Assembly (NCBI GenBank): GCA_944383375.1
Contig: CALWPG010000004.1
Span: forward strand, 42,423 to 106,422
Direction: 5' to 3'
Origin: an uncultured Clostridia bacterium
GTDB lineage: Bacteria > Bacillota > Clostridia > Christensenellales > UBA1242
Length of the DNA stretch: 64,000 bases
Shown here piece after piece: positions 13,490 to 64,000 of the stretch (positions within the stretch are counted from its first letter, which is position 1; each line of letters opens with the position of its first letter). Made by a program: the position numbers and the translations under genes. The notes under the pieces are model-generated. The model saw only the letters and a list, made by a program, of their open reading frames with translations. It did not search any database and was not told the DNA's origin.

Positions 13490-13575
13490 GCTGGTGTGGC
13501 GAAATGGCAGACGCACGGGACTCAAAATCCCGCGAGGGCAACTTCATGTGGGTTCGACTCCCACCACCAGCACCA
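13490..13575 (+). tRNA. tRNA-Leu(CAA), CCA encoded
   Basis: Acceptor GCTGGTG/CACCAGC, anticodon arm CGGGA-CTCAAAA-TCCCG, long variable arm, T arm GTGGG-TTCGACT-CCCAC, then A-CCA. Confidence 0.9.
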
Positions 13576-50722: not shown

Positions 50723-53344
50723 TTATTTGTTCCTAATTGCCGCTTGCGCTGCTGCGAGGCGTGCAATTGGCACTCTGTATGGTGAACATGAGACATAGGT
50801 TAGTCCAACTCTGTGGAAGAAATCGATTGATTGAGGATCTCCACCATGTTCGCCACAGACACCAAGTTTAATGTCAGGACGTGTGGATTTGCCAAGTTTA
50901 ACAGCCATGTCAACAAGTTTGCCAACCCCTTTTTCATCAACGTGAGCAAATGGATCGTTATCAAAAAGTTTTTTGTCATAATAAGCATCCAAGAACTTAC
51001 CAGCATCGTCACGGCTAAAGCCAAATGTCATTTGAGTTAAGTCATTTGTTCCAAATGAGAAGAACTCTGCAGTCTTGGCAATTTCGTCAGCTGTGAGTGC
51101 TGCACGAGGAATTTCAATCATGGTACCAATCTTATAGTCTAGTTTTTCACCACTAGCCTTGATTACCTCATCTGCAGTTTGTGCCACAATGTCACGAACA
51201 TAATTGAATTCTTTTGATTCACAAGTGAGTGGAATCATTATCTCTGGATGGATGTCATAACCATCTTCTCTTTTTACTGTGAGCGCTGCCTCGATCACTG
51301 CACGAGTTTGCATTCTTGCAATCTCAGGATATGTCACAGCAAGTCTAAGTCCACGATGACCCATCATTGGGTTAAATTCATGCAAACTTTCAACAGTATG
51401 TTTGAGTTTTTCAAAAGTCAAGCCCATATCCTTTGCAAGATCACGAATTTCATCATCTGTGTGAGGTAAAAACTCATGTAGAGGTGGATCCAAAAATCTT
51501 ATCGTTACTGGTTTACCTTTCATTGCTTTGTATAGACCTATGAAATCTTTTCTCTGCATAGGAAGAAGCTTACTAAGTGCCTTTTCTCTCTCTTCTACGG
51601 TGGAGGAAACAATCATCTCTCTAACTGCTGGGATACGATCTGCTTCAAAGAACATATGCTCTGTTCTGCACAGGCCTATTCCCTCTGCACCAAAGTTATA
51701 GGCTACTTCTGCATCACGAGGATTGTCTGCATTTGTGCGCACTTGTAATCTACGTGCATTATCTGCCCACTCCATGATGGTGGCAAAGTCTCCAGAAACT
51801 TCGGCTGGTTTTGTGTTTATTTTTCTGCCATAAACATTTCCTGTGGAACCATCAAAGGCAATTTCATCACCTTCGTGATATGTCTTTCCTGAAATTGTAC
51901 ATATCTTATTTTCTTCATCCACCGAAAGGCTGCCACATCCAGCAACACAAGCAGTTCCCATCCCACGAGCGACAACTGCCGCATGCGATGTCATACCGCC
52001 ACGAGCAGTCAAAACTCCTTGGCTAACTGCCATGCCCTCGATATCTTCTGGTGAAGTTTCAAGACGAACAAGAACGACTTTCTCTTTATTACTGCTGAGC
52101 TCTTTTGCCCTCTCTGCTGTGAAAACAATTTTGCCAGTTGCTGCGCCTGGTGAAGCTGGAAGGCCATGTGCGATGACTTCTGCATTTTTTAGGTCGGCTT
52201 CATCAAAAGTTGGATGAAGCAATGCATCAAGTTGTTTTGGGTCAAGCATGAGCAATGCTTGATCTTTGTTTATTCTGCCCTCATTTACAAGATCAACAGC
52301 AATTTTAAGGGCAGCTTTGGCTGTACGTTTACCATTTCTTGTTTGAAGCATATAAAGTTTACCCTTTTCAATTGTAAACTCCATATCTTGCATATCGTTG
52401 TAGTGATTTTCCAAAATTTCACAAATTTCAGTAAATTGTTTGTAAATCTCTGGATTTTGTTGCTCAAGGGTTGAGATAGGATTTGGTGTTCTTATACCAG
52501 CCACAACATCTTCACCCTGTGCATTCATAAGATATTCGCCAAACAACTTCTTTTCGCCAGTTGCAGGATTACGTGTGAACGCAACACCTGTTCCACTGGT
52601 TTCGCCCATATTTCCAAAAACCATGGTTTGAACATTTACAGCAGTACCCCAACTTGATGGGATATCATTCATACGGCGATAGACATTGGCTCTTGGATTA
52701 TCCCATGATCTAAACACGGCTTTAACAGCCTCAATAAGTTGTGTCTTTGGATCTGTAGGAAAGTCGCAATTCATTTCTTTTTTGTAAAATTCTTTAAACT
52801 TTGCAACCATTTCTTTTAGATCTTCGGCAGAAAATTCAATGTCAAGCTTGATGCCACGAGCTTCTTTCATTTCGTCAATAATTCTTTCAAATCTTGACTT
52901 GTCAAGTCCCATGACGACATCACTAAACATCTGAATAAATCTTCTGTAACTATCATAAGCAAAACGTTCATTGCCAGTAAGTTCGCTTAGTCCAACAACA
53001 ACTTCATCATTTATACCAAGATTGAGTATTGTATCCATCATGCCAGGCATGGATGCTCTTGCGCCCGAACGTACAGAAACAAGAAGTGGATTTTTTTTGT
53101 CGCCGAACTTTTTGCCGGTGATCTCTTCTAGTTTTTTAAGTCCCTCTTGAACCTGTGCAATCACTTCGTCACTCAATTTTTTGCCATCATCATAATACTT
53201 TGTGCAGGCTTCTGTCGTGACAGTGAATCCCTGTGGCACTGGAAGTCCAATATTGGTCATTTCTGCAAGGTTTGCACCTTTGCCACCAAGAAGGTTACGC
53301 ATCGATGCGTTTCCCTCACTAAAAAGATAAACGTATTTTGTCAT
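50723..53344 (-). CDS. ppdK: Pyruvate, phosphate dikinase
   Basis: Phosphohistidine motif GGMTSHAAVVARG and PEP-utilising C-terminus GVCGEHGGDP. Start set to MTKYVYLF. Confidence 0.95.
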   Translation of the reverse strand: MTKYVYLFSEGNASMRNLLGGKGANLAEMTNIGLPVPQGFTVTTEACTKYYDDGKKLSDEVIAQVQEGLKKLEEITGKKFGDKKNPLLVSVRSGARASMPGMMDTILNLGINDEVVVGLSELTGNERFAYDSYRRFIQMFSDVVMGLDKSRFERIIDEMKEARGIKLDIEFSAEDLKEMVAKFKEFYKKEMNCDFPTDPKTQLIEAVKAVFRSWDNPRANVYRRMNDIPSSWGTAVNVQTMVFGNMGETSGTGVAFTRNPATGEKKLFGEYLMNAQGEDVVAGIRTPNPISTLEQQNPEIYKQFTEICEILENHYNDMQDMEFTIEKGKLYMLQTRNGKRTAKAALKIAVDLVNEGRINKDQALLMLDPKQLDALLHPTFDEADLKNAEVIAHGLPASPGAATGKIVFTAERAKELSSNKEKVVLVRLETSPEDIEGMAVSQGVLTARGGMTSHAAVVARGMGTACVAGCGSLSVDEENKICTISGKTYHEGDEIAFDGSTGNVYGRKINTKPAEVSGDFATIMEWADNARRLQVRTNADNPRDAEVAYNFGAEGIGLCRTEHMFFEADRIPAVREMIVSSTVEEREKALSKLLPMQRKDFIGLYKAMKGKPVTIRFLDPPLHEFLPHTDDEIRDLAKDMGLTFEKLKHTVESLHEFNPMMGHRGLRLAVTYPEIARMQTRAVIEAALTVKREDGYDIHPEIMIPLTCESKEFNYVRDIVAQTADEVIKASGEKLDYKIGTMIEIPRAALTADEIAKTAEFFSFGTNDLTQMTFGFSRDDAGKFLDAYYDKKLFDNDPFAHVDEKGVGKLVDMAVKLGKSTRPDIKLGVCGEHGGDPQSIDFFHRVGLTYVSCSPYRVPIARLAAAQAAIRNK

Positions 53345-53416
53345 TTTTCCTCCATTTTTCAAACTTAGATAGTTTAAAACATTAAAAAAAAATAAGCAAA
53401 TAAATTATGCTTATTT

Positions 53417-54127
53417 TTATAGTAACTTCAATTTTTTGTTAAATCGCCTATCAAAATTGATATTTAAAATGTTCAGCACTTCATCCTCGCTGCCTTTGGC
53501 AAGTTTTAGTGTGGATAATTTTTTATAATCTGTGGTATTTAGAAGTTTAAGCGCAGTGCCTACCCTTGACGATACCTCAATGCAATTTGCCGCTTTGCAG
53601 CCCAGGCAAACAATTTCTCCAAAGTCTAGATTAAGATATCTTTTTCCAGAAAATTTTTCTCCACAGACAGAGCATGCGTCCATCGCCAAACGATACCCCA
53701 TGGCAGAAAAAATTGAAAGCAAATATTTTATCAAAACATACTTGTCGTTGACATTGCCATAGGCTATTGTTCCAAGCGCTTTTAATGTCTCTAAAAACAA
53801 GGGTGTATTCTCCACGCCTTCTCCAGCGACGGTGTTTACTACCTCCAAAATGGCACAGGCGATGTAATATTTGTCGATGTCCTGGCTGAGTTCAAAAAAA
53901 TTGTTTTGAACATCAACTCCAGTGATGACATTGGAAGGTGTTTCAATAAAAAAATCACCAAAGCAAAATAACTCTTTGGCAAATTTTAACTTGGCTTTTG
54001 GTGATTTGACTGAACGCAATACACCATAAATTTTGCCCTTTTCAAGCGAAAATAAAGTTACACGCTTGTCCTTTTCCTTATAGTCACTACTGCCAATTAC
54101 GATGGCTTTGACTTTTATACTACCCAC
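53417..54127 (-). CDS. recO: DNA repair protein RecO
   Basis: OB-fold N-terminus, Zn-finger CSVCG...CLGC, and position after era-yqzL. Confidence 0.85.
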   Translation of the reverse strand: MGSIKVKAIVIGSSDYKEKDKRVTLFSLEKGKIYGVLRSVKSPKAKLKFAKELFCFGDFFIETPSNVITGVDVQNNFFELSQDIDKYYIACAILEVVNTVAGEGVENTPLFLETLKALGTIAYGNVNDKYVLIKYLLSIFSAMGYRLAMDACSVCGEKFSGKRYLNLDFGEIVCLGCKAANCIEVSSRVGTALKLLNTTDYKKLSTLKLAKGSEDEVLNILNINFDRRFNKKLKLL

Positions 54128-54291
54128 TATAATTCCATTCCCTGATCTTGCAACTGTTCGTTTGCGTAAAAGTCCAATACCTTCTCATCACTATGTTGAA
54201 CAGCAAAATACAAAAGATATACATTCACATTTCCAGTACTTGAAAATATATCCCAAAGTTTTTTTGCATTGTCCGAAACAAATTTTTCCAT
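54127..54291 (-). CDS. YqzL-like small protein (54 aa, not in the ORF track)
   Basis: MEKFVSDNAKKLWDIFSSTGNVNVYLLYFAVQ... AAAGGTG RBS. Occupies the conserved era-yqzL-recO slot. Confidence 0.6.
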   Translation of the reverse strand: MEKFVSDNAKKLWDIFSSTGNVNVYLLYFAVQHSDEKVLDFYANEQLQDQGMEL

Positions 54292-54362
54292 AGTTCACCT
54301 TTTTGTATGTCGACTTTACATCTTCATTATACTATTACTATATGCAAAAACAAAGAAAAAAT

Positions 54363-55268
54363 TTACAAATCTTCATTTTTGTATCCAAATTCCGTCAAAA
54401 AATTTAAGTTTTCTCGCCAATCCTTCTTCACTTTTACAAAAAGTTTCAAAAGGACTTGGGTTTGAGTGATGTCCTCAATGTCTTTCCTTGCGCTCTCACC
54501 TATTTTTTTTATCATACTACCTTTTTTGCCGATAATGATGCTTTTGTGGCTGTCTCTTTCGCAAATTATGTCAGCCTCAACTACGCATAAATTTGGTTTT
54601 TGAGTGAAATTTGTGATGTTGACACTTATTCCATGAGGTATTTCATCGTTGAGATAATATAATGCCTTTTCTCTCACAATCTCGCTTATGATAAACTTAA
54701 GAGATTTGTCGGTGTAATAATCTTCGTCATAGGCAAAGTTTTTTTGTTCACTTTCTGGAAGAAAATCAAGAAGAAGGTTTAAGAGTTTTTCTGTATTCTC
54801 TCCCTGCTTGGCACTGATTGGCAAAATTTCATCCACAGAGCATGACTGTGCCAAAACTGATATCATTGGCAAAAGGTTTTCCTTTTTGAAAATGTCCACC
54901 TTATTTAAAACCACGACCACAGGCACATCAAATTTTTGTTTTAAGTTTTTTATATAGTCAATTTCCTCTTGCCCTATTTTTTTTGTCGCATCAATGACGT
55001 ATACAATAATATCTGCGCCGCTTTGAGCACTGCGAATGTTTTTGTTCATGAACTTGTCCAGTGCATTTTTAGATTTATGCACACCAGGGGTGTCAATAAA
55101 CACAAGTTGGTAAGTTTGCGTTGTCAAAATGCCAAGGATGTTATTTCTTGTGGTTTGAGCTTTTGGAGAGACAATCGCAACCTTGTTTTTGGTCAAAAAA
55201 TTGACCAACGTGCTTTTACCTGCATTTGGTTTGCCAACTACTGCAATGTACCCAAATTTATACTTCAT
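54363..55268 (-). CDS. era: GTPase Era
   Basis: G1 GKPNAGKST, G3 DTPG, G4 NKVD, and a C-terminal KH domain. Confidence 0.95.
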   Translation of the reverse strand: MKYKFGYIAVVGKPNAGKSTLVNFLTKNKVAIVSPKAQTTRNNILGILTTQTYQLVFIDTPGVHKSKNALDKFMNKNIRSAQSGADIIVYVIDATKKIGQEEIDYIKNLKQKFDVPVVVVLNKVDIFKKENLLPMISVLAQSCSVDEILPISAKQGENTEKLLNLLLDFLPESEQKNFAYDEDYYTDKSLKFIISEIVREKALYYLNDEIPHGISVNITNFTQKPNLCVVEADIICERDSHKSIIIGKKGSMIKKIGESARKDIEDITQTQVLLKLFVKVKKDWRENLNFLTEFGYKNEDL

Positions 55269-55729
55269 CTGTTGACTTTCGCCTCTTTTAAAATTTTATC
55301 TGAAAGCGTGAACATGACTTTCTCTTCTTCACTTGTCATGTGATCGTAACCTAAAAGATGCAACAAACCATGCAAACTCAAAAAGCAGATCTCGCGCAAT
55401 ATGGAATGTCCAAAATTTGTCGCCTGCTCTTTTGCACGCACTTTGCAAATAACTATGTCACCTATGTCGCTTTGCGTGCCTTCGTCCAGCATCTCGCCGA
55501 CTTTCAACTCATCACTTTCAAAAAGTGGAAAAGAAAGTACATCAGTGACCTTGTCAACACCTCTAAACTCATTGTTTAGGCGTTTTATCTCTCTTTGAGA
55601 GACAAAAGTGATGTTGACGGAGATGTTTTTCTTTGTGTGCGTCTTTTTTAATGCGATTTCAAAAATTTTTGAGATGTTTTGTGTCAACTCTTTGTCTTTT
55701 AAGCCGTTAAAGTTAATTTTCATGTTCAC
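55265..55729 (-). CDS. ybeY: rRNA maturation endoribonuclease YbeY
   Basis: HGLLHLLGYDH metal-binding motif. Confidence 0.9.
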   Translation of the reverse strand: MNMKINFNGLKDKELTQNISKIFEIALKKTHTKKNISVNITFVSQREIKRLNNEFRGVDKVTDVLSFPLFESDELKVGEMLDEGTQSDIGDIVICKVRAKEQATNFGHSILREICFLSLHGLLHLLGYDHMTSEEEKVMFTLSDKILKEAKVNR

Positions 55730-55730
55730 C

Positions 55731-56837
55731 CTATGCTATTTTTTTGCTAGCCGTGATTGTGAATTCAATGACGTGATAGCCATCAAAATCACGCACAACA
55801 TAGCTTTCATTTTTAATTATGTCATAATTTTTCACATTTAGCAAGGCAATTTCACGTGTTTGCATGGCATAGATTTGTTCATTTTCAGCAAAGTTGGTGT
55901 CAATGTAGCTTTCCGTGTACTCGTGGTATTCGTCATATTTTATTTTAATTGGAAGAAGCGTGTCAGAAATGTAGACCTCTTTACTTTCAACATCATAATG
56001 CTCATAGCTTACTTCATTTTCAACACTGTAAAGTGGCAAGCCTAAAAATGAAATTTGGTAGTTTTTGATGACGTTTCCCGTGTAGCTTTTTTCAATCCTT
56101 TGGTCGTACACCGTCAAAGAGGAAGTGATATACACATCTGCCACGACATCTGCAAGTGGCTGAACGCTTCGAGTGTCGCCATTGCTGTCGGTGGAATATG
56201 GATAGACGAGTATGTCGCCGACCTTCACAATATCCCCCACACCAACGGCCAAGGTACCTTGAATGAGCTTTATGGAAGTTATCATGCCATCGTATACGGA
56301 TACAAGTGGTGCAAAATTTCCTGAATTGACTATTTCAGAGTTGGTGAGTTGCTCCCTCACATTTATTATGAGTGCATTGCCCCGTATGACAATGCTAACG
56401 TAACTGACATAATCTATGCTTTCGATGGCGTTTTCAAGCTTTTTTATGTCCACACTGGACTTAAACATAAGGTTTTGAATATTGTTTTGCTTGAGTGTTT
56501 CATAAATCTTCTGCTCTGTGAAATCGATGTCACCCATGACTATCACATCGGTTATAAAAAAACTTGATACTATCCAAAGCACAGCACTCACCACAAGCCC
56601 AAGCACTATGCCCACACTGCAAAAGGGTTTGAAAATCCCAGTCATTTTGACCGCTTTGTATGCCGTTTTGTCGAGCCCCATGAATTTGAGAGTTTTGAGT
56701 ATGTTCTTCCTGTCCTTGTCATGACAACAAAATGTCACCTTTTCCTCTGATTTTGTGACATCAAAAATGGTATATTTAGTTGAGAGTTTACTTATGACCC
56801 TTTCAGTGTTTCTGGGAGAAATTTCAAATTTATACAT
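55731..56837 (-). CDS. yqfD: Sporulation protein YqfD
   Basis: 368 aa with a single central TM helix. Follows yqfC, as in Bacilli and Clostridia. Confidence 0.7.
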   Translation of the reverse strand: MYKFEISPRNTERVISKLSTKYTIFDVTKSEEKVTFCCHDKDRKNILKTLKFMGLDKTAYKAVKMTGIFKPFCSVGIVLGLVVSAVLWIVSSFFITDVIVMGDIDFTEQKIYETLKQNNIQNLMFKSSVDIKKLENAIESIDYVSYVSIVIRGNALIINVREQLTNSEIVNSGNFAPLVSVYDGMITSIKLIQGTLAVGVGDIVKVGDILVYPYSTDSNGDTRSVQPLADVVADVYITSSLTVYDQRIEKSYTGNVIKNYQISFLGLPLYSVENEVSYEHYDVESKEVYISDTLLPIKIKYDEYHEYTESYIDTNFAENEQIYAMQTREIALLNVKNYDIIKNESYVVRDFDGYHVIEFTITASKKIA

Positions 56838-57109
56838 TATTTACTCTCTATGCTCTCGATTTTTCCAACAATGCAAACAGTGCTTCCACTTATTTTTTTC
56901 AGCTTCAGATTTTGTCCAAGCACCTCCACTAGCCCACCCTTTATGCGAATGGACATGCTTTCACTGGATATTTTGACCACGCCTTTTTGCCCCTCGATGT
57001 AGACGAGTTTGTTGGACATATTGATGATGTTGAAACTACTCACACCATCAATTTCAAGACCATAATCTGCAATAAGTTCACTAAAAAAATTAAACACCGT
57101 TTGCCTCAA
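56837..57109 (-). CDS. yqfC: Sporulation protein YqfC
   Basis: 90 aa. YabP/YqfC-like repeat pattern (LVYIEGQKGVVKISSESMSIRIKGG). Lies upstream of yqfD. Confidence 0.65.
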   Translation of the reverse strand: MRQTVFNFFSELIADYGLEIDGVSSFNIINMSNKLVYIEGQKGVVKISSESMSIRIKGGLVEVLGQNLKLKKISGSTVCIVGKIESIESK

Positions 57110-57194
57110 AATAAGATATGTATTCCATTATGTACATATGCCAAAAAGCCTTGACAAAAAAATGCCATGATTATATCATATTGTGAGGTTAATT

Positions 57195-58670
57195 ATGGAA
57201 GTTAGAACACGTTTTGCACCAAGCCCAACGGGCTATATGCACATAGGAAATTTACGCACTGCACTGTTTGCTTATCTTTTTGCAAAGCACAACGGTGGCA
57301 AGTTTATTTTAAGAATTGAGGACACCGACCAAAAACGTTATGTTGAGGGCGCGACAAAAGTCATATATGACACACTCAAAATCGCCAACTTAAAGCACGA
57401 TGAAGGCCCTGATGTTGGTGGAGAGTATGGCCCTTATGTTCAAAGTGAAAGAAAAGAGATTTATGCTAAATACGCACATATGCTTTTGGAGAGTGGACAT
57501 GCGTACTATTGTTTTTGCGATGAAGATGAAAAGGAAGAGCAAGGCTTTGGCTACAACAGACATTGCAGGAATTTGAGTCTGGAGGAAATCCAAAAAAACC
57601 TTGACGAGAAAAAGCCATATGTCATAAGACAAAAAGTTCCACTAACAGGCACCACCACCTTCCATGACGAAGTGTATGGCACCATAACTGTGGAAAATGA
57701 CAGCCTTGATGACCAAGTGCTGCTCAAACGTGACGGTATGCCTACATACAACTTTGCAAATGTGGTGGACGATCACCTTATGAATATCACCCACGTCATC
57801 CGTGGCAAGGAATATATCTCTTCAACACCAAAATACCAACTTTTGTATGAAGCTTTTGGGTGGCAACCACCAAAGACCATTCACCTTTCCACTATCATGG
57901 GCAGAAACGAAGATGGCAGTGTCAGCAAACTCAGCAAACGTCACGGCTCTGTGAGTTTCAACAATTTGCTTGAAGAAGGCTATTTAAGCGAGGCAATCGT
58001 CAACTACATCTCACTTCTTGGCTGGAACCCAAAGAGCGAGCAAGAACTCTTCTCTCTTGACGAACTCATCCAGCATTTTGATATCGACGGCATTGTCAAA
58101 AGCGATGCAATTTTTGACTACAAAAAATTGGACTGGTTCAATGCTCAGTACATCCAAAAGTTGGACCACAAAAGCTTTGTTGAAAAAAGTTTGCCTTACA
58201 CCAAAAATTTGCCAAAATTCATACAACAAAAATGGGAGTTTGCCTCCACCTTGGCACAGTCACGTATAAACAAATTTAGTGATATTCAACCACTGTTTGA
58301 ATTTTTGGACAATTTTAAAATCGACACAAATCTTTTTGAAAATAAGAAAAATAAACTTGATAAGCAAACATCACTGGATATTTTGAAAGATATGTTCCCA
58401 CTTCTTGCCAGCGCAGATTTTGAGGTTGAAAAATTAAACCACTTGCTTGCAAAATATGCCACCGACCACGAGATGAAAATTGGCAAACTCATGTGGCCTG
58501 TCCGCATTGCAGTGACTGCAAACACGGTGACCCCAGGTGGTGCTGGTGAAATGCTGTATCTACTTGGAAAAGAAGAGTCAATTTTGCGCCTTAAAGCCAG
58601 CATACAACGTTTGACAAGATCACGACGCAAACCAAGAATAAATACTGATGAAACAAAGGCTGGCAAATAA
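57195..58670 (+). CDS. gltX: Glutamate--tRNA ligase
   Basis: HIGH-type PTGYMHIGNLRTA and KLSKR motifs. Start ATG 57195. Confidence 0.95.
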   Translation: MEVRTRFAPSPTGYMHIGNLRTALFAYLFAKHNGGKFILRIEDTDQKRYVEGATKVIYDTLKIANLKHDEGPDVGGEYGPYVQSERKEIYAKYAHMLLESGHAYYCFCDEDEKEEQGFGYNRHCRNLSLEEIQKNLDEKKPYVIRQKVPLTGTTTFHDEVYGTITVENDSLDDQVLLKRDGMPTYNFANVVDDHLMNITHVIRGKEYISSTPKYQLLYEAFGWQPPKTIHLSTIMGRNEDGSVSKLSKRHGSVSFNNLLEEGYLSEAIVNYISLLGWNPKSEQELFSLDELIQHFDIDGIVKSDAIFDYKKLDWFNAQYIQKLDHKSFVEKSLPYTKNLPKFIQQKWEFASTLAQSRINKFSDIQPLFEFLDNFKIDTNLFENKKNKLDKQTSLDILKDMFPLLASADFEVEKLNHLLAKYATDHEMKIGKLMWPVRIAVTANTVTPGGAGEMLYLLGKEESILRLKASIQRLTRSRRKPRINTDETKAGK

Positions 58671-58688
58671 GACAACACATTGTCATGT

Positions 58689-58759
58689 GTCACTCCGAGC
58701 CTTGCTTACAGAGACGGACAAGCGAGGAGTCCCTGAGATTTCTCAGTGCGAGGAATCTC
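58689..58759 (+). repeat. Hairpin-repeat family: one full copy plus fragments upstream of the RT
   Basis: GTC-ACTCC-GA-G...C-GA-GGAGT, then fragments GAGATTTCTC and CGAGGAATCTC. Same family as the 60208-60575 field. Confidence 0.7.
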
Positions 58760-58806
58760 AATCTGACAAAAAGTGAAATTTTTCAACATTTTTTGCAAAT
58801 AGTTTG

Positions 58807-58833
58807 TTGAAACCTGCTTTAGTATGTTAAAAT
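58807..58833 (+). promoter_or_regulatory. Putative extended -10 promoter of the RT gene
   Basis: TTGAAA, 15 nt, TGtTAAAAT. Leaves a ~20-nt leader with an AGGAG RBS. Confidence 0.35.
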
Positions 58834-58859
58834 TTAATATACTACAACAGGAGAAAATT

Positions 58860-60071
58860 ATGAATTTGGATTTTATTGGTCAAGTTGCTTTTTTCAAGAA
58901 AAAAACTGGCAACGATGTACGCAAACTTTGCAAATTTAAAAACAAATCAAGTATTGAATACAATGCATCTCTGAGCATAAAACAGATTTTAGAGCCACTT
59001 GTTGAAAAGGAAATGAGAGACATCAATGGCATGACAGAAAAATTTATGCGAAGATTAATGGCGAACAGAATGGGGCTTTTCACAATTGTCAAGTTTGATT
59101 TTAAGGACTTTTTCCCTTCCATTTCACTTCGCTATGCCTATGAATTTTTTATTAAAGACAAGATTAATGAAAAATACCACCCACTGTTTGAAAACTATGT
59201 GGAGAGTGTGAAATACAATCTTCAAGGTTTGCCGCCAAGCAGTAACTTTGCTGCAGTTATGGCAAAAGCCATGAAAGAGGGGATTTTTGCTTTCTTTAAA
59301 ATTGACGGACTTACAGATTGTTTTTATTATGATGATACTTTTGTCATGTTATTTAAAAAGCGCGTCAATCATATCTATATAAAATTTGGCATTGAAGAGT
59401 GTGTAAAAAATGTGTTTAACAAGAAAAATAGCTTTAAATACCAAAACAAAGTAAAAGTGAATAACGACAACGAAAAATATGTATATTTGAATGATGAAAA
59501 ACTTCCCTGCTCATTCAGCTGGCTTGGATATAAATTTGGAATAACCTATGGTTGGCAAGGCATTGGTATGACAATTGACATCGCAGATGAGATGATAGAA
59601 CATCTTCGCCAAAAGATTTTTGAAGCAGTAAGGTTAAACTATCCTGACACAGAAAAATTGCGACTAATGCTGTACTCCAGCACAAGAAACGTCGTCACAA
59701 AGATTGAAAAGCAAGGTCAGGACAACAGAAATGTCAGCATAACGCCATTCAAGTTCTATAAAAACTTGGTCAAATATAAAGAACTCATTGGAGAAAATAC
59801 AGTTCGCTTTTTGCAAGGTGTTGTAATTGATGCGTTCAGACAACAGACAATCGCGCTGCCATATTATCTATACGACCAAAAAATTGAAAGTGGCTACAAC
59901 ATTTGGCACAATCTTTTCTCACATAGAGCGATTGTTCTCAACAAAAAATTTGGATGGTCGTATCCAAAACTTTACAATATCCTAAAGAAACATACAAATT
60001 TGGACTTACATAACAAGCCATACAGTGAACTCGCAAAAATTTATATAGATAATTTTGTAATAAAATACTAA
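58860..60071 (+). CDS. Stand-alone reverse transcriptase (403 aa), unclassified Abi/UG-like
   Basis: RT motifs VKFDFKDFFPSI (motif 2), LQGLPPSSNFAAV (motif 3), CFYYDDTFVML (YxDD, motif 5) and SWLGYKF (motif 7). Start ATG 58860 follows AGGAG. Confidence 0.8.
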   Translation: MNLDFIGQVAFFKKKTGNDVRKLCKFKNKSSIEYNASLSIKQILEPLVEKEMRDINGMTEKFMRRLMANRMGLFTIVKFDFKDFFPSISLRYAYEFFIKDKINEKYHPLFENYVESVKYNLQGLPPSSNFAAVMAKAMKEGIFAFFKIDGLTDCFYYDDTFVMLFKKRVNHIYIKFGIEECVKNVFNKKNSFKYQNKVKVNNDNEKYVYLNDEKLPCSFSWLGYKFGITYGWQGIGMTIDIADEMIEHLRQKIFEAVRLNYPDTEKLRLMLYSSTRNVVTKIEKQGQDNRNVSITPFKFYKNLVKYKELIGENTVRFLQGVVIDAFRQQTIALPYYLYDQKIESGYNIWHNLFSHRAIVLNKKFGWSYPKLYNILKKHTNLDLHNKPYSELAKIYIDNFVIKY

Positions 60072-60078
60072 AATCGTT

Positions 60079-60106
60079 TTGAAATAGTTAAAAACTGTGA
60101 TATCAT
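60079..60106 (+). promoter_or_regulatory. Putative extended -10 promoter just after the RT stop
   Basis: TTGAAA (60079-60084), 16 nt, TGaTATCAT (-10 at 60101-60106). Confidence 0.4.
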
Positions 60107-60112
60107 GTTGTC

Positions 60113-60200
60113 AAGGCTGCGAGAGCGGCTGAATTAAGAATTCGAAACAAAGTCACTGACGTTGTTTCATTCAGATGTTGCTTCGGCGACATCTTTTTTT
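60113..60200 (+). ncRNA. Candidate ~90-nt structured small RNA adjacent to the RT
   Basis: Hairpin 1 is GGCTGC-GAGA-GCGGCT (GNRA loop). Hairpin 2 is TGAAT..GAAACAA-11 nt-TTGTTTC-ATTCA. Hairpin 3 is GATGTTGC-TTCG-GCGACATC (UUCG loop) plus T7. Confidence 0.45.
60174..60200 (+). terminator. Rho-independent terminator (RT / small RNA unit)
   Basis: GATGTTGC-ttcg-GCGACATC followed by TTTTTTT. Confidence 0.8.
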
Positions 60201-60207
60201 ATGTAAT

Positions 60208-60575
60208 GAGATTCCTCGTCGTAAACTCCTCGGAATGACAGGAGTAGTGTCATGTCGAATTCCATTTTGTCATCCCGAATGTAGTGAGAGATCACAACCT
60301 TTTGTCATTTCGAGCGAAGCGAGAAATCTCAGCCTCATGTCATCCTGAGGAGCGACAGCGACGTGAGGATCTCGTGTACGCGCCCTGTGGGCGAGACTCC
60401 TCGCTTTTGGCTCGGAGTGACACGCTACTTCGCTTTTGTCATTTCGAAGTGCGTAGCACTGAGAAATCTCAGAGATTCCTCGTGGCAGAGCCACTCGGAA
60501 TGGCAATAGGTTGTACTGCCTCGGAACGACAGGATGAGTGCACTTTCAGAATGACTGTGGTGCCTAGAATGACAA
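60208..60575. repeat. Field of at least 7 hairpin repeats in both orientations (consensus GTC-AYYYC-GA-[variable stem-loop]-GA-GRRRT-CTC)
   Basis: Copies at 60208-60240 (rev), 60269-60293 (degenerate), 60304-60330, 60339-60373, 60393-60421 (rev), 60438-60470 and 60472-60504 (rev), with fragments to about 60575. Visibly GC-richer than the flanks. Confidence 0.8.
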
Positions 60576-60582
60576 TTGCAAG

Positions 60583-60613
60583 AAAAAATGTGGAATAAAT
60601 TCCACATTTTTTT
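60583..60613. terminator. Bidirectional terminator (ends the giant minus-strand gene)
   Basis: AAAAA-ATGTGGA-ataaat-TCCACAT-TTTTTT. Confidence 0.75.
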
Positions 60614-60626
60614 ACTTTAAATATTA

Positions 60627-63600
60627 TCAAATCCATCTTAAGGCACTCGTTGTGGCGTCTCCACGTACAAAACTCAAGCTACCGGTTGAGACTCTAAAGT
60701 AAGAAGAATAACTAGTTTGCATTGATGTTGGTATCATTGCTATCCAACCACGAGTAGATGCTCCAGTTAATGTTAAGGTCACTGATTTAGTATAACTAAT
60801 AATATTTAATCCATAATTTTGAACCATTTCTGGAGTAGACGATGATGAGGTATAAACATACAACGTACCAGTTATTGTTGGAAGACCATCTATGGTAATT
60901 TTCCCTTGATATGGAGAATTAATACTATATTGAGAACCTGTAATGTATGGAGAACCTTCAATATCCAAAGTTGTATTTGCTGACTTATTAATCGCTATAT
61001 TCGTATAATCTTCACCAACATTAGCACTACCAGATACGCTGATTGCAATACCTTTTGTTGAAGTGTTTGTAGAAGCAAAAATTGCTGTTGCTCCACCAAT
61101 AGTTCCACCACTAACATTTAAAGTCCCACCTATAGTATAAATACCATAAGTACTTCCCTTTGAGCCTATAATTGTAGGAACTGACGCACTTGATTGACTT
61201 ATTGTAATGGTTCCCACATTTGACGTGGAATTTCCATTATGTATAGCATAAGGACCATCAATGTACCCACCTTGAATAACTATAGTGCCATCACCATAGT
61301 TGAATATACCTTTCATTCTTGTTGGCATGGAGTATCCACATTGTATTGTACCACCAGTGATCATTACTGTGCCGTTGCTAGCATTGTACAATCCATATGC
61401 AGTGTTTGAATTTCCAATTGTACCACCATTAATAGTCACAGCATGAGCACCATTAGCTCCATTATAAACTCCAGTACCTGCCAAAATCACAGTTGGTGTT
61501 TGGTCTGAAGTTTGGTCTATGGTAATAGTACCAGAACTAGTTGATCCATGGCCATTTCGAATTCCAGTAGATGATGCATTAATAGTACCACCATTAAAGT
61601 TCACGGAGCCGTTGCCATAATTGTATATACCATTTCCTGAGGAGCCGGCTGTCAATGTTCCACCATTTACAGTGATATTTCCGGTTGAATTGTTGTAAAT
61701 AGCATTTCCACAAGCAGAACCACCAATGTCACCATCTGTTACTGTGACTTTACCAGTGGAGTTATTAAATACTCCATAAGATGCTGTTCCATTTCCGATT
61801 GTTCCACCCGAAATTGTGACAGCATTTGTTCTTGTGGAATTGTTATAAATTGCACTCTCAACCCCGTCAATATTCGCAGAATCAGAAACTGTAAGCATGC
61901 TATTGCTATTATTTAAAACAACGCCTCTGTAGCCATCTATGTGCCCTCCTGATATTGTAATACCACCAGGAGCATCACTATATACTCCAGCAAAACCATC
62001 AGTTTCAGCACCCGTAACTTGGCCTCCACTCACTACCACAGCTCCCACAAGTGTTGAGTAGTTATAAATTCCATAATTACCACTAATTGAGGCTGTACTA
62101 GAAACAGTGATTACACCATCAGCATTTAGAATTCCATAGTAACCATTAGCCTCACCTGCTGAGATAGTTACATTTCCCGATACGTTGTATATTGCACTAC
62201 AATCTGCTGAAGTAGAACTTTGTATTAATCCACCTAAAATTAAAATTTCTCCAGTTGAATCATTATAAACACCATAAGTGCTTGACGTGGAACCGATTGT
62301 TCCGCCTGAGATTGTGACTGCATATTGACTACCTGTTGGTGATGAGTAATTTTCTATTGCATTGTCAACAGCATTAATAACAGTTGGATAGGTACTACTT
62401 GCTTGGCTAATCGTTACTGTGCCAGTAGTTGTTGAAGCAGTACTACCATTCACAATGGCTCGTGAACCAGTAATTGTCCCTCCAGTTATTTCAACTGAAC
62501 CATTTCCATAGTTCACCACAGCAATACCTTTAACATCACCAGTCGGATCATTTGCAGCTGTTATCGTTGATGAGCCTGAAATAGTTACAGTTCCACTCTC
62601 ATTTTGAATTGTCTCCATAGGAGCACTTACTTGCGAATTATTAATTTTTAAAATTCCGTTGTTTGTATTTGTAATCGCACTAGTAAGACAAATTATAGTA
62701 TTGTTATCAATGAAATTCAATTCTCCATTATCGTTCGTTATAGGCAGCATTGATGTTATTTCTGAGTCAGCAAATTCCATGTATCCACTATTATTAACAA
62801 AAGCAGGACCTAGAGGTGATTCTAAAGTAGAGCCAGAAACTGTAACGGTCCCTTGATTGTTAGTAATAGCACCTAACCTTACACTTGTAGTAGGTACATC
62901 TATGTAACAATTAATAACATTCAGAGTGCTGCTAGTGACAGTAATGGCACCATCAATACTTAACTGAGCACTTCCGCCACCCAAGGTGAGGGTGCTTGCT
63001 GTTTGAGTTATGTTTCCTGTCACGGTGACTGCTGAATTACTTATTATTGTAAGAGGTATGCCGACAAGAGCAGTGTCAGTTGTGTGATTACGTTGAACAA
63101 TTAAAATATCGTTATTTTCAGCAAACTTTGTTGCATCGGCTAATTGTGCGTATGAAATAGATCTTGTTTGGTTGCGCACATTTGCAACTCCAAGGCAAAG
63201 GTCACTTGTGCCATTTAGGTACAATGACTCAGAAACTATTCCCAGTCTGAAATGATAGCCCCAATCTAGTGCTGTGTCGGTATTTTCATAATATGCAAGA
63301 TATGTTCCATCTGTTTGAGCGCTTTCAGTAATTTCAATATCTCTCGTAGTAAAAGTTCCTTCAATAACCACACCAAAATTGTTGCTTGTTGTGTTTGAAA
63401 ATGAAGTTGTACTTGACCTTGCTCTGATGCTTGAAATTGTAGGTGAACCTGTAAGTCTCAACCAACCACCATCATTCATGTCTATGCTATAGTAACCGCT
63501 AATTGATCCACCACTAACAGTTACTGTTCCGTTTGAACTATCAATACCAGAATAACTGGATGAAGAACTACCTGTAATTGTTCCGCCCTGTACATCTATT

Positions 63601-64000
63601 GCATTTTCACTAGTGCCTTGATTAATAATTCCGTATCTTGTTCCTGTGATTTGTGTTGATGTTCCACTTATAGTTACAGTGGCATTACTTCCCTGATTAA
63701 ATATACCCGAATTTCCACTAATGGTTCCACCAGTGATTGTTAAATCACCAGAATTATTAATTGCATAAGCGCCATAAGCTGTTCCACTTTGAATTGTACC
63801 ATTTTGAATTTGGACTACTGCTGATGATGAAACATTCCATATTCCTATATTGGTTCCAGTAATTGATGTATTTGCACCTGAAATCATAACTTCAGCAGTT
63901 GAAGTATCAGAACCATCTCCATTTTGGATTCCTCGATAACCTGTCAATGTACCACCAGTTATGGATACTGCTCCATCAAAATTAACCAAAGCAGTAAACG
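60627..64000 (-). CDS. Very large secreted/surface protein with beta-helix-type Gly/Thr/Ser/Asn repeats (C-terminal part; N-terminus lies beyond the window)
   Basis: The frame stays open to the window edge. Dozens of ~30-aa repeats of the form (V/I)T(I/V)SGGTIxGxxxGIxNxxxGxV. Confidence 0.8.
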   Translation of the reverse strand, partial: FTALVNFDGAVSITGGTLTGYRGIQNGDGSDTSTAEVMISGANTSITGTNIGIWNVSSSAVVQIQNGTIQSGTAYGAYAINNSGDLTITGGTISGNSGIFNQGSNATVTISGTSTQITGTRYGIINQGTSENAIDVQGGTITGSSSSSYSGIDSSNGTVTVSGGSISGYYSIDMNDGGWLRLTGSPTISSIRARSSTTSFSNTTSNNFGVVIEGTFTTRDIEITESAQTDGTYLAYYENTDTALDWGYHFRLGIVSESLYLNGTSDLCLGVANVRNQTRSISYAQLADATKFAENNDILIVQRNHTTDTALVGIPLTIISNSAVTVTGNITQTASTLTLGGGSAQLSIDGAITVTSSTLNVINCYIDVPTTSVRLGAITNNQGTVTVSGSTLESPLGPAFVNNSGYMEFADSEITSMLPITNDNGELNFIDNNTIICLTSAITNTNNGILKINNSQVSAPMETIQNESGTVTISGSSTITAANDPTGDVKGIAVVNYGNGSVEITGGTITGSRAIVNGSTASTTTGTVTISQASSTYPTVINAVDNAIENYSSPTGSQYAVTISGGTIGSTSSTYGVYNDSTGEILILGGLIQSSTSADCSAIYNVSGNVTISAGEANGYYGILNADGVITVSSTASISGNYGIYNYSTLVGAVVVSGGQVTGAETDGFAGVYSDAPGGITISGGHIDGYRGVVLNNSNSMLTVSDSANIDGVESAIYNNSTRTNAVTISGGTIGNGTASYGVFNNSTGKVTVTDGDIGGSACGNAIYNNSTGNITVNGGTLTAGSSGNGIYNYGNGSVNFNGGTINASSTGIRNGHGSTSSGTITIDQTSDQTPTVILAGTGVYNGANGAHAVTINGGTIGNSNTAYGLYNASNGTVMITGGTIQCGYSMPTRMKGIFNYGDGTIVIQGGYIDGPYAIHNGNSTSNVGTITISQSSASVPTIIGSKGSTYGIYTIGGTLNVSGGTIGGATAIFASTNTSTKGIAISVSGSANVGEDYTNIAINKSANTTLDIEGSPYITGSQYSINSPYQGKITIDGLPTITGTLYVYTSSSSTPEMVQNYGLNIISYTKSVTLTLTGASTRGWIAMIPTSMQTSYSSYFRVSTGSLSFVRGDATTSALRWI

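What the first reader, a model, noticed from the sequence alone, without database searches (positions are those of the whole stretch)
60079..60200. Promoter- and terminator-bounded ~90-nt three-hairpin RNA immediately downstream of the RT
Eight nt after the RT stop codon there is a TTGAAA-16-TGaTATCAT extended -10 promoter. About 90 nt later comes a strong terminator. The interval folds by eye into three hairpins. The first is GGCTGC-GAGA-GCGGCT, with a GNRA tetraloop. The second is a long interrupted stem, TGAAT/ATTCA plus GAAACAA/TTGTTTC, with an 11-nt loop AGTCACTGACG. The third is the terminator stem capped by a UUCG tetraloop. Two thermostable tetraloops within 90 nt of an AT-rich genome argue for a selected RNA structure. 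It would be made both from its own promoter and by read-through from the RT mRNA. It is a candidate template, primer or scaffold RNA for the RT.
Basis: partly seen in the sequence, partly recalled or inferred. Interest (0 to 1): 0.65.

Follow-up and report, generated by a model that had tools for sequence, protein, structure and literature searches.

The report
Partner RNA of a solo Drt3a-like RT
The ~88-nt three-hairpin RNA just downstream of the reverse transcriptase gene is real and conserved, has its own promoter, is inherited with the gene, and is most likely the enzyme's scaffold-and-template RNA in a previously undescribed single-enzyme relative of the DRT3 anti-phage system.

Summary
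A TTGAAA-16-TGaTATCAT promoter (60079-60106), an ~88-nt RNA (60113-60200) and an intrinsic terminator lie right after the RT gene (58860-60071).

The same RNA follows every close RT homologue found: 8 distinct sequences, RT identity 57-89%. Three helices are kept: SL1 with a GNRA loop, SL2 with a triloop, and the terminator. 97.6% of cells are paired and 12 pairs carry compensatory changes.

The RT is a full-length but distant homologue of Drt3a (UG3, class 2 UG RT; hhalign 99.9%, 27% identity). It has no Drt3b partner, and the RNA has no ACACAC template.

The 13-16-nt linker between SL1 and SL2 varies strongly between near-identical RNAs. Yet it always starts and ends with the same 3-5 nt (window GAAUU-AA-GAAUU). 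This is the A-B-A' pattern that sets tandem-repeat cDNA synthesis in DRT10.

Best reading: a two-part RT-ncRNA system making short tandem-repeat DNA (predicted unit TTAATTC), probably for defence. Templating is inferred, not shown.

Two lineages lack catalytic aspartates but stay under strong purifying selection. This is a new variant of a known kind; interest is moderate to high.

The parts
58807..58833 (+). Promoter-like site for the RT gene (TTGAAA, 15-nt spacer, TGtTAAAAT) inside the cassette. Low confidence.
   Evidence: Read from the sequence. The same bases are present upstream of the RT in L006. The spacer is 15 nt, so the consensus scan did not list it. This is inference.
58860..60071 (+). 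RT gene, 403 aa from MNLDF. The mechanical ORF starts at 58824, but homologues and the AGGAG ribosome-binding site point to 58860. Motif A is KFDFKDFF and motif C is FYYDDT.
   Evidence: ORF list and translation. Family alignment. hhalign to Firmicute Drt3a gives 99.9%, E 5.7e-35, over 375 columns. The AF2 model has pLDDT 90, and the best full-length structural matches are DRT9 RTs at TM 0.52-0.54. dN/dS is 0.04-0.11.
60079..60106 (+). Promoter of the ncRNA: TTGAAA, 16 nt, TG-a-TATCAT (extended -10).
   Evidence: Consensus scan. TTGnnn at 16-17 nt followed by TRTGnTAnnnT is present in all 7 distinct homologous flanks.
60113..60200 (+). The ncRNA, about 88 nt, from the conserved 5' AAGG to the U-tract.
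   Evidence: The covariance model R1 matches 60113-60201 at 103.9 bits. It matches the same position after the RT in all homologues at 93-105 bits. There is no Rfam match.
60115..60130 (+). SL1: a 6-bp stem with a GAGA (GNRA) loop. Proposed 5' template boundary.
   Evidence: 100% of cells are paired and 2 pairs have compensatory change (C-G to U-A; G-C to A-U).
60131..60143 (+). Unpaired hypervariable linker, the candidate template. A = GAAUU (60131-60135), B = AA (60136-60137), A' = GAAUU (60138-60142).
   Evidence: RNAalifold leaves it unpaired. An anchored direct repeat of 3-5 nt is present in all 8 sequences: summed length 31 against 10.2 +/- 2.6 in shuffles, 0 of 20000. The linker changes at 4/14 and 4/16 positions in two close pairs, whereas the rest of the RNA changes at 1/75 and 0/77. 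The A-B-A' rule comes from PMC12632851.
60144..60168 (+). SL2: GAAACAA / UUGUUUC, a 1x1 internal loop, GUC/GAC, and an ACU triloop.
   Evidence: 98.6% of cells are paired and 4 of 10 pairs have compensatory change.
60173..60200 (+). Intrinsic terminator: a 9-bp stem, UUCG loop and U7.
   Evidence: Terminator scan. 6 of 8 counted pairs have compensatory change.
58680..58770 (.). Left flank of the cassette: GC-rich hairpin repeats. This is context, not shown to be part of the system.
   Evidence: Inverted matches to 60409-60482. The core motif occurs only around the cassette in the 64 kb.
60205..60560 (.). Right flank of the cassette: an array of about 8 GC-rich hairpin repeats of the TGTCATTYCGA...GAGRAATCTC type. 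This is context.
   Evidence: The same arrays lie on both sides of the inverted cassette in L006.

Best explanation
The segment 58860-60200 is a self-contained two-part module. It comprises a reverse transcriptase that is a distant, Drt3b-less relative of Drt3a (UG3, class 2 UG/DRT RTs), and an ~88-nt non-coding RNA. The RNA is transcribed from its own extended -10 promoter and ended by an intrinsic terminator.

SL1, SL2 and the conserved unpaired bases (5' AAGG, CUGA) are proposed to be the protein-binding scaffold.

The 13-nt unpaired linker between SL1 and SL2 is proposed to be the template. It has the A-B-A' form (GAAUU-AA-GAAUU) and lies directly 3' of a stable stem, SL1, that would stop the enzyme. 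After copying A-B, the nascent DNA would re-anneal on A' and be extended again. This would give tandem repeats of a 7-nt unit (predicted 5'-TTAATTC-3'), as in DRT10 and, with a dinucleotide unit, Drt3a.

By analogy with every characterised class 2 UG system, the product would act in anti-phage defence.

Shown here: the RNA, its structure, its promoter and terminator, its linkage to the RT, the RT's homology, and the repeat pattern and hypervariability of the linker.

Inferred: RNA-protein binding, templating, the product and the biological role.
For: **RNA structure**
- The RNA is conserved after the RT in 8 distinct sequences.
- Three helices are 97.6% paired, with 12 compensatory pairs; 0 of 500 shuffles reach this, and slid controls reach at most 59%.
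- RNAalifold gives the same structure independently.

**Promoter**
- The promoter is conserved, and conservation starts at the predicted +1.

**Linkage to the RT**
- The RT and RNA keep the same order and strand in gltX/giant-protein loci of both orientations, and also in SpoU-methylase loci.
- Window and L006 have flanks 98.8% identical, but the cassette is inverted as a unit.

**RT homology**
- The distant homologues are Drt3a proteins with Drt3b next to them.
- hhalign of the family against Firmicute Drt3a gives 99.9% over 375 columns.
- The intermediate solo RTs P0057 and P0058 hit the PADLOC Drt3a model best, at E 4e-11.
- The best full-length structural matches are DRT9 RT-ncRNA complexes, TM 0.52-0.54.
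- In the six Firmicute DRT3 loci fetched, a structured conserved RNA-like segment also lies directly downstream of Drt3a.

**Linker as template**
- It is unpaired in the consensus.
- It is hypervariable in two independent close pairs, p = 0.002 and p = 0.0006.
- An anchored direct repeat of 3-5 nt is present in 8 of 8 sequences, 0 of 20000 shuffles.
- In L006 both copies changed together (AAUU to AAUC). In L002 both read AUUU. These changes break the alternative hairpin but keep the repeat.
[quoted passage not shown] Trinucleotide repeats at the template ends are described as general for class 2 UG RTs.

**Selection on the protein**
- The RT is under purifying selection, dN/dS 0.04-0.11.
Against: - There are no expression, binding or cDNA data.
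- Only 8 related sequences are available. The shuffle tests ignore shared ancestry, and the A-B-A' test was defined after seeing the data.
- AAUU is self-complementary. A small GAAUU/AAUUC hairpin therefore fits the window, L001 and L004 as well, and fits L024, L003 and L005 slightly better than the repeat does (4 bp against 3 nt).
- Motif C is shifted in the window lineage (FYYDDT or FYYDDA instead of FYYVDD).
- Two lineages lack catalytic aspartates: L002 has YHLNE; L003 has YYIND plus a motif A D-to-S change. Both still keep the RNA and a dN/dS of 0.06. Polymerisation therefore cannot be the function everywhere.
- PADLOC's Drt3a, Drt9 and UG17 models do not reach E 0.01 on the window RT.
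- No effector gene was found.
- The neighbours are housekeeping genes, not a recognisable defence island.
- More distant solo relatives (L019-L023, L026) show no clear copy of this RNA.
Confidence: 0.55

Rival explanations
1. The RNA is a structural or regulatory partner of the RT-like protein but is not copied. The ribonucleoprotein would work without DNA synthesis, for example as a sensor, decoy or RNA-binding switch. The linker would be a protein-contact or small-hairpin region.
For: - L002 (P0004, YHLNE) and L003 (P0005, YYIND with motif A D-to-S) lack the catalytic carboxylates. Their proteins are still under strong purifying selection, dN/dS 0.06.
- Their RNAs keep all three helices, and L003 has lineage-specific compensatory pairs.
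- The window's own motif C is atypical, YYDDT.
- A GAAUU/AAUUC hairpin is possible in most members, 83% of cells paired.
Against: - Five of 8 close family members and all intermediates keep a canonical YVDD or YxDD.
- The window keeps Y-x-D-D as YYDD.
- Every characterised class 2 UG RT uses its ncRNA as template.
- Near-neutral divergence of the linker, with only its two ends kept alike, is not what a protein-contact surface predicts.
- The hairpin shows no compensatory change, and L006 and L002 break it.
Confidence: 0.2
2. The region is only the 3' UTR and terminator of the RT mRNA, or an unrelated small RNA that happens to sit there. The hairpins would have no relation to the RT.
For: - There is no terminator between the RT stop and the RNA, so read-through is expected.
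- One of the three helices is simply the terminator.
Against: - A conserved promoter of its own lies between the stop codon and the RNA in all homologues.
- SL1 and SL2 carry 6 compensatory pairs and are more conserved than the coding sequence: 1/75 changes where the RT gene is 87% identical with dS 0.70.
- The RNA follows the RT, not its neighbours, through inversion and relocation.
- Downstream genes differ or are convergent, so it is not a leader for them.
Confidence: 0.05
3. It is a retron: the RNA is an msr-msd that is reverse transcribed into branched msDNA.
For: - The only curated-model hits of the window RT are weak matches of the RT core to retron RT models, E about 1e-5.
- The profile search of solved structures finds Ec86 RT at E 6e-4.
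- Retron RTs are among the top Foldseek hits by E-value.
Against: - These matches cover only the polymerase core (residues about 85-215) and score 22 bits against a 235-bit cut-off.
- The full-length homologues are Drt3a, E 5.7e-35.
- TM-scores are higher for DRT9 (0.52-0.54) than for retrons (0.38-0.47).
- The RNA is downstream of the RT with its own promoter.
- It has no a1/a2 inverted repeats at its ends.
- No effector gene accompanies it.
Confidence: 0.03
4. It is the template repeat of a diversity-generating retroelement that targets the neighbouring giant surface protein.
For: Giant surface-protein genes lie next to the RT in the window, L001, L004-L006, L009, L024, and in the distant P0058 loci.
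Against: - There is no second copy (variable repeat) of the RNA sequence in the window or loci. R1 finds only the RT-adjacent copy, and the linker occurs once.
- The RNA is highly structured and conserved between species, unlike a TR.
- The RT groups with Drt3a, not with DGR RTs.
- No Avd-like gene was seen.
- L002, L003 and L019 lack the giant neighbour.
Confidence: 0.01

Closest known systems
DRT3 (Drt3a/UG3 + Drt3b/UG8 + ncRNA; Gao 2020; Mestre 2022, PMC9226505; Wang et al. 2026, PMC13174585)
   Same: - The RT is homologous to Drt3a over its whole length: 27% identity, hhalign 99.9%.
- A structured ncRNA is encoded in cis.
- In the six Firmicute DRT3 loci fetched here, the conserved structured segment also lies directly after Drt3a and begins with a tetraloop-capped hairpin (GUAA in L012, UUGC in L014 and L016).
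- Drt3a copies a short repetitive template in an unpaired stretch next to a stem.
   Different: - There is no Drt3b anywhere in the 64-kb window or in 11 related loci.
- The RNA has no ACACAC or GUGUGU motif.
- The RNA is about half the size and has its own promoter.
- The candidate template is a 7-10-nt species-specific unit rather than a conserved dinucleotide repeat.
- The RT lacks the roughly 45-aa N-terminal extension and two insertions of Drt3a.
- The RT is not detected by PADLOC Drt3a models.
- The context is chromosomal housekeeping genes rather than ICE- or plasmid-like DNA.
DRT10 (UG17 RT + SLATT + ncRNA; Tang et al. 2025, PMC12632851; bioRxiv 10.64898/2026.04.29.721553)
   Same: - The linker shows the A-B-A' pattern: A and A' are 3-5 nt and B is 2-7 nt.
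- The pattern lies immediately 3' of a stable stem-loop.
- The template region is poorly conserved inside a conserved scaffold.
- The predicted repeat units are 7-10 nt.
   Different: - The RT is not UG17; no PADLOC RT_UG17 hit was found.
- There is no SLATT gene.
- The RNA is downstream of the RT, whereas in DRT10 it lies upstream of the SLATT gene.
- The RNA is 88 nt with 2 scaffold hairpins, against 137 nt with a central stem and four stem-loops.
DRT9 (UG28 RT + ncRNA, poly-dA synthesis; PDB 9nlv, 9vma, 9vku)
   Same: - Both are two-component systems (RT + ncRNA) with no effector gene.
- DRT9 gives the best full-length structural match of the predicted RT, TM 0.52-0.54.
   Different: - Sequence identity is about 15% and the PADLOC Drt9 model gives no hit.
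- There is no poly-U template other than the terminator tail.
- The DRT9 ncRNA is upstream of the RT and larger.
Telomerase (TERT + TER)
   Same: The proposed logic is the same: a short template whose ends repeat, bounded 5' by a stem that acts as template boundary element, with iterative realignment. TERT appears among the structural matches, TM 0.43.
   Different: There is no TEN/TRBD domain architecture. The organism is a bacterium with no evidence of linear replicons. The relation is one of mechanism only, and it is inferred.
Retrons
   Same: Both have a small RT with a cis-encoded structured ncRNA. Weak core similarity exists.
   Different: - The RNA position and promoter differ.
- There are no a1/a2 repeats.
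- There is no effector.
- The RT's C-terminal 170 aa are of Drt3a type.

Membership tests
DRT3 (UG3 + UG8 + ncRNA) | A Drt3a (UG3) reverse transcriptase | tested here: inconclusive
   The RT is homologous over its full length to Firmicute Drt3a (hhalign 99.9%, E 5.7e-35, 27% identity). The curated PADLOC Drt3a models give no hit at E <= 0.01 on the window RT, nor at E <= 0.1 on P0003, P0006 and P0007. Only the intermediates P0057 and P0058 reach them, at E 4e-11. It is a sister or derived branch, not a recognised member.
DRT3 (UG3 + UG8 + ncRNA) | An adjacent Drt3b (UG8) reverse transcriptase | tested here: not met
   tblastn with a Drt3b sequence (L012) finds nothing at E <= 0.01 in the whole window or in L001-L006, L009, L019, L021, L024 and L026. 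The neighbours are gltX, a giant surface protein and a SpoU methylase.
DRT3 (UG3 + UG8 + ncRNA) | An ncRNA with a conserved exposed ACACAC/CACACA template motif | tested here: not met
   There is no ACACAC or GTGTGT in 60113-60200. R1 does not match the DRT3 intergenic RNAs in L012-L017.
DRT10 (UG17 + SLATT + ncRNA) | A UG17 RT and an adjacent SLATT protein | tested here: not met
   No RT_UG17 hit appears in PADLOC. No SLATT domain is found in the neighbouring ORFs.
DRT10 (UG17 + SLATT + ncRNA) | [quoted passage not shown] | tested here: met
   All 8 of 8 linkers have an anchored 3-5-nt direct repeat directly 3' of SL1. The sample is small and the hairpin alternative is not excluded. This supports 'works like DRT10', not membership.
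DRT9 (UG28 + ncRNA) | A UG28 RT and a poly-U template loop | tested here: not met
   DRT9 is the best structural match (TM 0.52-0.54), but the PADLOC Drt9 model gives no hit. The only U-run is the terminator tail.
Class 2 UG/Abi RT-ncRNA systems (Mestre 2022) | An RT of the class 2 clade with no extra known domain | tested here: met
   The nearest relatives are UG3. No Pfam domain beyond the RT is found. No tree with all UG groups was built.
Class 2 UG/Abi RT-ncRNA systems (Mestre 2022) | A cis-encoded structured ncRNA next to the RT | tested here: met
   The ncRNA is present after the RT, with covariation.
Class 2 UG/Abi RT-ncRNA systems (Mestre 2022) | ncRNA-templated cDNA synthesis by the RT | not testable with these tools
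   This needs cDIP-seq or miniprep-seq, or an in vitro assay.
Retron | A retron-clade RT | tested here: not met
   Only core hits are found: 22 bits against a 235-bit cut-off and E about 1e-5.
Retron | An msr-msd with flanking a1/a2 inverted repeats, usually upstream of the RT | tested here: not met
   There are no terminal inverted repeats around the RNA, and the RNA is downstream of the RT.
Retron | An associated effector gene | tested here: not met
   No conserved accessory gene was found.
DGR | A TR/VR repeat pair with a target gene | tested here: not met
   No second copy of the RNA exists in the window or loci.
Any Rfam family | A match to a curated covariance model | tested here: not met
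   cmscan of 56000-64000 at E <= 1 returns only two unrelated sub-threshold hits elsewhere.

The most novel reading that the evidence does not exclude
A previously unrecognised minimal 'solo Drt3a' system in uncultured gut Clostridia. It would consist of one RT plus an 88-nt RNA that acts like a miniature telomerase RNA (stem boundary, then an A-B-A' template) and writes species-specific 7-10-nt tandem-repeat DNA. The template evolves almost freely. At least two natural lineages have lost the catalytic aspartates yet retain both protein and RNA under selection. This implies a second, polymerase-independent activity of the ribonucleoprotein, or a non-defence housekeeping role at a fixed chromosomal site.
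Probability: 0.35. Interest if true: 0.75.

Novelty: new variant of a known kind. Interest (0 to 1): 0.6.

Why it matters
**Smallest system of its kind.** Class 2 UG reverse transcriptases (DRT2, DRT3a, DRT9, DRT10) have recently been shown to write repetitive DNA from short templates in dedicated ncRNAs. DRT10 has also been linked to the origin of telomerase. This locus would add the smallest such system so far: one 403-aa RT and one 88-nt RNA with two scaffold hairpins. It comes from Clostridia that have not been cultured.

**What Drt3a does alone.** It is related to Drt3a but lacks the second polymerase that DRT3 needs to make double-stranded product. It therefore bears directly on what a Drt3a-type enzyme does on its own.

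**Cheap, decisive tests.** The predicted templates differ between near-identical strains, which gives ready-made, falsifiable predictions of the product sequence. The compact RNA would make the template-boundary and realignment rules easy to test and to re-programme.

**Natural catalytic-site variants.** Lineages without the catalytic aspartates, still under purifying selection, offer a rare natural experiment on non-catalytic roles of RT-ncRNA particles.

Tried and rejected
1. **Rfam.** Rfam search of the region found nothing relevant.

2. **Outer stem.** It is 74% paired with no compensatory change, so it is rejected as a conserved feature.

3. **Mid hairpin.** A small GAAUU/AAUUC hairpin in the linker is 83% paired with no compensatory change, and L006 and L002 break it. 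It is not supported but not excluded. Part was mis-specified: the second helix was placed at the wrong columns. It was redone.

4. **More sequences.** The metagenome-contig scan returned only the window's own sequence. The genome scan gave 5 loci. The sample stays at 8 distinct RNAs.

5. **The RNA in more distant solo RT loci.**
   - L019 gave a 32-bit hit on the opposite strand right after the RT, but without a proper SL1.
   - L020 and L021 gave E 0.08-0.6 for an element upstream of the RT.
   - L026 gave nothing.
   - L027, a DRT3 locus, gave a 25-bit hit after Drt3b that looks like a terminator plus chance.
   - None of these was used as evidence.

6. **Retron and DGR.** Both readings were rejected on RT homology, RNA position and the lack of a1/a2 or a VR.

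7. **Genomic copies of the predicted product.** None was found.

8. **Giant neighbouring protein as partner.** The association is recurrent but not universal, since L002, L003 and L019 lack it. It is left as a passing note.

9. **Library-wide search.** The profile search found 153 representatives at E <= 1e-3, with this close family represented by one or two. Proteins returned only by that search (for example P0133, P0134) could not be looked up for genomic context.
Full report
**1. What is in the sequence**

The RT-like ORF runs from 58824 to 60071 on the + strand. Homologues and a ribosome-binding site place the real start at 58860, MNLDF, giving 403 aa.

The stop codon ends at 60071, and these features follow it:
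- Seven bases later comes TTGAAA (60079-60084).
- After a 16-nt spacer come TG (60098-60099) and TATCAT (60101-60106). The consensus scan reports this as a 10-of-12 promoter with an extended -10.
- A terminator-like hairpin occupies 60173-60194: 9 pairs, UUCG loop, followed by seven T.

The interval folds at -31.6 kcal/mol, against -22.4 +/- 3.3 for shuffles (z = -2.8).

**2. It is conserved with the RT**

A protein search found a small family. Eight clusters share 57-99% identity with the window RT, followed by a gap down to about 26%.

Loci for the close family came from a genome scan and from contig look-ups. In every one, the RT stop is followed by the same arrangement: a TTGnnn-16/17-TRTGnTAnnnT promoter, then an RNA beginning AAGG, then a terminator. 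There are eight distinct RNA sequences: window, L006, L001, L024, L004, L002, L003 and L005.

On a 7-sequence alignment I tested the three helices SL1, SL2 and the terminator:
- 97.6% of cells are canonical pairs.
- 12 of 24 pairs carry changes on both sides.
- 0 of 500 column shuffles reach the observed values.
- Sliding the partners by 1-3 columns drops pairing to 33-59%.

RNAalifold, given the alignment alone, returns the same three helices and leaves the stretch between SL1 and SL2 unpaired.

- The '11-nt loop' of hairpin 2 is really a 1x1 internal loop, a 3-bp helix (GUC/GAC, which covaries to AUC/GAU and AUU/AAU) and a triloop.
- The outer TGAAT/ATTCA extension is not conserved. It is 74% paired with no compensatory change.

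No Rfam family matches. A covariance model, R1, finds the RNA only after these RTs, at 93-105 bits.

**3. The RNA travels with the RT, not with its neighbours**

The cassette occurs in three arrangements:

| Loci | Arrangement |
|---|---|
| window, L005, L009 | gltX > RT > RNA < giant surface protein |
| L001, L004, L006, L024 | giant protein > RT > RNA < gltX |
| L002, L003 | RT after a SpoU-type methyltransferase gene |

The window and L006 are the most telling pair. The 5.6 kb from recO to gltX are 98.8% identical. The cassette (58749-60240) is only 87% identical (dS 0.70) and is inverted as a unit. So the RT, its RNA and their two promoters behave as one exchangeable module.

In the window and L006 the module is bracketed on both sides by arrays of GC-rich hairpin repeats in inverted orientation. 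Recombination between these arrays is a plausible route for the inversion, but this is inference.

**4. What the RT is**

Curated models do not place it:
- Pfam gives nothing.
- PADLOC and NCBIfam give only weak hits of the polymerase core to retron RTs: E about 1e-5, and 22 bits against a 235-bit cut-off.

The distant homologues of about 460 aa are Drt3a (UG3). PADLOC scores them as Drt3a at E 1e-33 to 1e-35. Each is followed by a 673-675-aa Drt3b (E 1e-119 to 1e-122), in ICE- or plasmid-like surroundings.

Further evidence for the link to Drt3a:
- A profile-profile comparison of the window's family with 13 such Drt3a proteins gives 99.9% probability, E 5.7e-35. It spans 375 aligned columns from near the N-terminus to the C-terminus, at 27% identity.
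- Intermediate solo RTs (P0057, P0058) hit the Drt3a models directly, at E 4e-11.
- An AlphaFold model (pLDDT 90) matches RT folds. The highest full-length TM-scores are for DRT9 RT-ncRNA complexes at 0.52-0.54, compared with retrons at 0.38-0.47.

No Drt3b is present in the window or in any solo locus.

The family is rare. A profile search of 1.84 billion representative proteins returns 153 hits, of which one or two represent this close family.

Motif C varies across the family:
- It is YVDD in most members.
- It is YYDD(T/A) in the window lineage. This is still a Y-x-D-D, shifted by one residue.
- It is degenerate in two lineages. P0004 (L002) has YHLNE. P0005 (L003) has YYIND, and its motif A aspartate is replaced by serine.

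All pairs, including L002 against L003, show dN/dS of 0.04-0.11.

**5. How it most likely works**

Published work on the relatives:
- Drt3a copies a short repetitive template (ACACAC) in an exposed part of a cis-encoded ncRNA into poly(dTdG) (PMC13174585).
- DRT10 copies a template of the form A-B-A'. A and A' are 2-4 identical bases. B is free. [quoted passage not shown]
- A further preprint states that repeats at the template ends are general for class 2 UG RTs.

The window RNA has the corresponding anatomy. SL1, a 6-bp GNRA-capped stem, is followed at once by an unpaired 13-nt linker, GAAUU-AA-GAAUU-C, and then SL2. Across the eight sequences the linker is 13-16 nt and differs in sequence.

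In every case the linker begins and ends with the same 3-5 bases:

| Sequence | Repeat at the two ends |
|---|---|
| window | GAAUU..GAAUU |
| L006 | AAUC..AAUC |
| L001 | GAAUU..GAAUU |
| L024 | AAU..AAU |
| L004 | AAUU..AAUU |
| L002 | AUUU..AUUU |
| L003 | AUU..AUU |
| L005 | AAU..AAU |

The summed length of these anchored repeats is 31, against 10.2 +/- 2.6 in shuffled linkers (0 of 20000). The unanchored test gives 28 against 18.1.

Two independent close pairs show that the linker is the only fast-changing part of the RNA:
- Window against L006: 4/14 changes in the linker and 1/75 elsewhere (p = 0.002).
- L001 against L024: 4/16 changes in the linker and 0/77 elsewhere (p = 0.0006).

In L006 both repeat copies changed from AAUU to AAUC. 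This destroys two pairs of the alternative GAAUU/AAUUC hairpin but keeps the repeat.

I therefore propose a telomerase- or DRT10-like cycle. The RT, bound to SL1 and SL2, copies A-B up to the SL1 boundary. The product then realigns on A' and is extended again. The predicted repeat for the window is 5'-TTAATTC-3'.

The cautions are real:
- There are only eight related sequences.
- The test was framed after seeing the pattern.
- AAUU is self-complementary.
- Three members (L024, L003, L005) fit a 4-bp hairpin slightly better than a 3-nt repeat.
- Nothing about binding, priming or product was measured.

**6. Biological role**

By analogy with all characterised class 2 UG systems, the role would be anti-phage defence.

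In favour:
- The cassette is a divergent, exchangeable allele in an otherwise near-identical chromosome. It sits next to hypervariable surface-protein genes.

Against:
- There is no effector and no recognisable defence neighbours.
- The chromosomal position is stable across species.
- Two lineages have lost the catalytic aspartates yet keep the protein and the RNA under selection.

The last point keeps a non-polymerase function of the ribonucleoprotein alive as the main rival, at about 0.2.

**7. Comparison and novelty**

The locus works most like DRT10 in template logic. It is most closely related to DRT3a by descent, and its component count resembles DRT9 or DRT2.

It is not a member of DRT3, because it has no Drt3b and no ACACAC. 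It is not a member of DRT10, because it has no UG17 RT and no SLATT. It is not a DRT9, a retron or a DGR either.

The full-text searches for DRT3, UG3 and Drt3a papers found no description of a Drt3b-less Drt3a-like clade or of this RNA. Mestre et al. describe only UG3+UG8 architectures.

I classify it as a new variant of a known kind.

**8. Verdict**

- The mechanism is inferred with moderate confidence. I put 'the RNA is the RT's dedicated partner' at about 0.8. I put the full statement, including A-B-A' templating, at about 0.55.
- Interest is 0.6.

Noticed in passing
window 58680-58770 and 60205-60560; L006 5300-5900 and 7349-7501; L019 4780-4830: Arrays of ~35-45-nt GC-rich hairpin repeats (TGTCATTCCGAG..loop..CGAGGAATCTC type) bracket the RT-ncRNA cassette on both sides in inverted orientation. 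Within the 64-kb window, all exact matches to the core GTCATTYCGA and 7 of the 10 one-mismatch matches lie in these flanks. One copy also sits next to a distant solo RT. They may mediate the cassette inversion. Any functional link to the RT is unknown.
   Followed up: partly
window 53020-60240 versus L006: The RT-ncRNA cassette is inverted and only 87% identical (dS 0.70) between two genomes whose adjacent recO-gltX region is 98.8% identical. The orientation also differs among more distant species.
   Followed up: partly
L002 (P0004) and L003 (P0005) RT genes: Two lineages have lost catalytic aspartates: YHLNE in one, and YYIND plus a motif A D-to-S change in the other. They remain intact with dN/dS 0.06 and keep a structurally compensated ncRNA.
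   Followed up: partly
window 60627-63989 (-); L001 537-5852; L005 6971-12163; L006 1-5288; L021 1-4784: Giant surface proteins of 1100 to over 4900 aa lie next to the RT, both in the close family and in the distant P0058 solo clade. The window copy has no Pfam hit. The others carry Flg_new (Listeria-Bacteroides) repeats or LRR_5. They diverge strongly between strains.
   Followed up: partly
window 13490-13969: tRNA-Leu(CAA) is followed by 2.2 perfect 197-nt tandem copies. Each begins with the 3' half of the tRNA. This could be an att-site-like duplication or an assembly artefact.
   Followed up: no
window 42745-43452: A long run of 9-nt-periodic repeats, collagen-like Gly-X-Y coding if read on the minus strand.
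   Followed up: no
L012 6384-6560, L014 6387-6565, L016 6393-6571, L027 2354-2530: In Firmicute DRT3 loci, the conserved structured intergenic segment lies between Drt3a and Drt3b. It starts with a long hairpin capped by a tetraloop (GUAA in L012, UUGC in L014 and L016). In L012, L014 and L016 it holds AAACACAAUG and GAUGUGUGUGCA; L027 holds only a GUGUG-type stretch. In the E. coli system the RNA lies downstream of Drt3b.
   Followed up: partly
L020 1721-1822; L021 4837-4903: The solo RTs P0057 and P0058 have only 30 nt before a convergent bipA. A conserved hairpin-plus-terminator element lies upstream of the RT instead. It resembles SL2 plus the terminator of the window RNA only weakly, R1 E 0.08-0.6.
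   Followed up: partly
protein P0129 (483 aa, from the representative library): A phage-fibre-like N-terminal 218 aa is joined to the C-terminal 265 aa of this RT family, starting at the YVDD motif. It is either a chimera or a misassembly.
   Followed up: no
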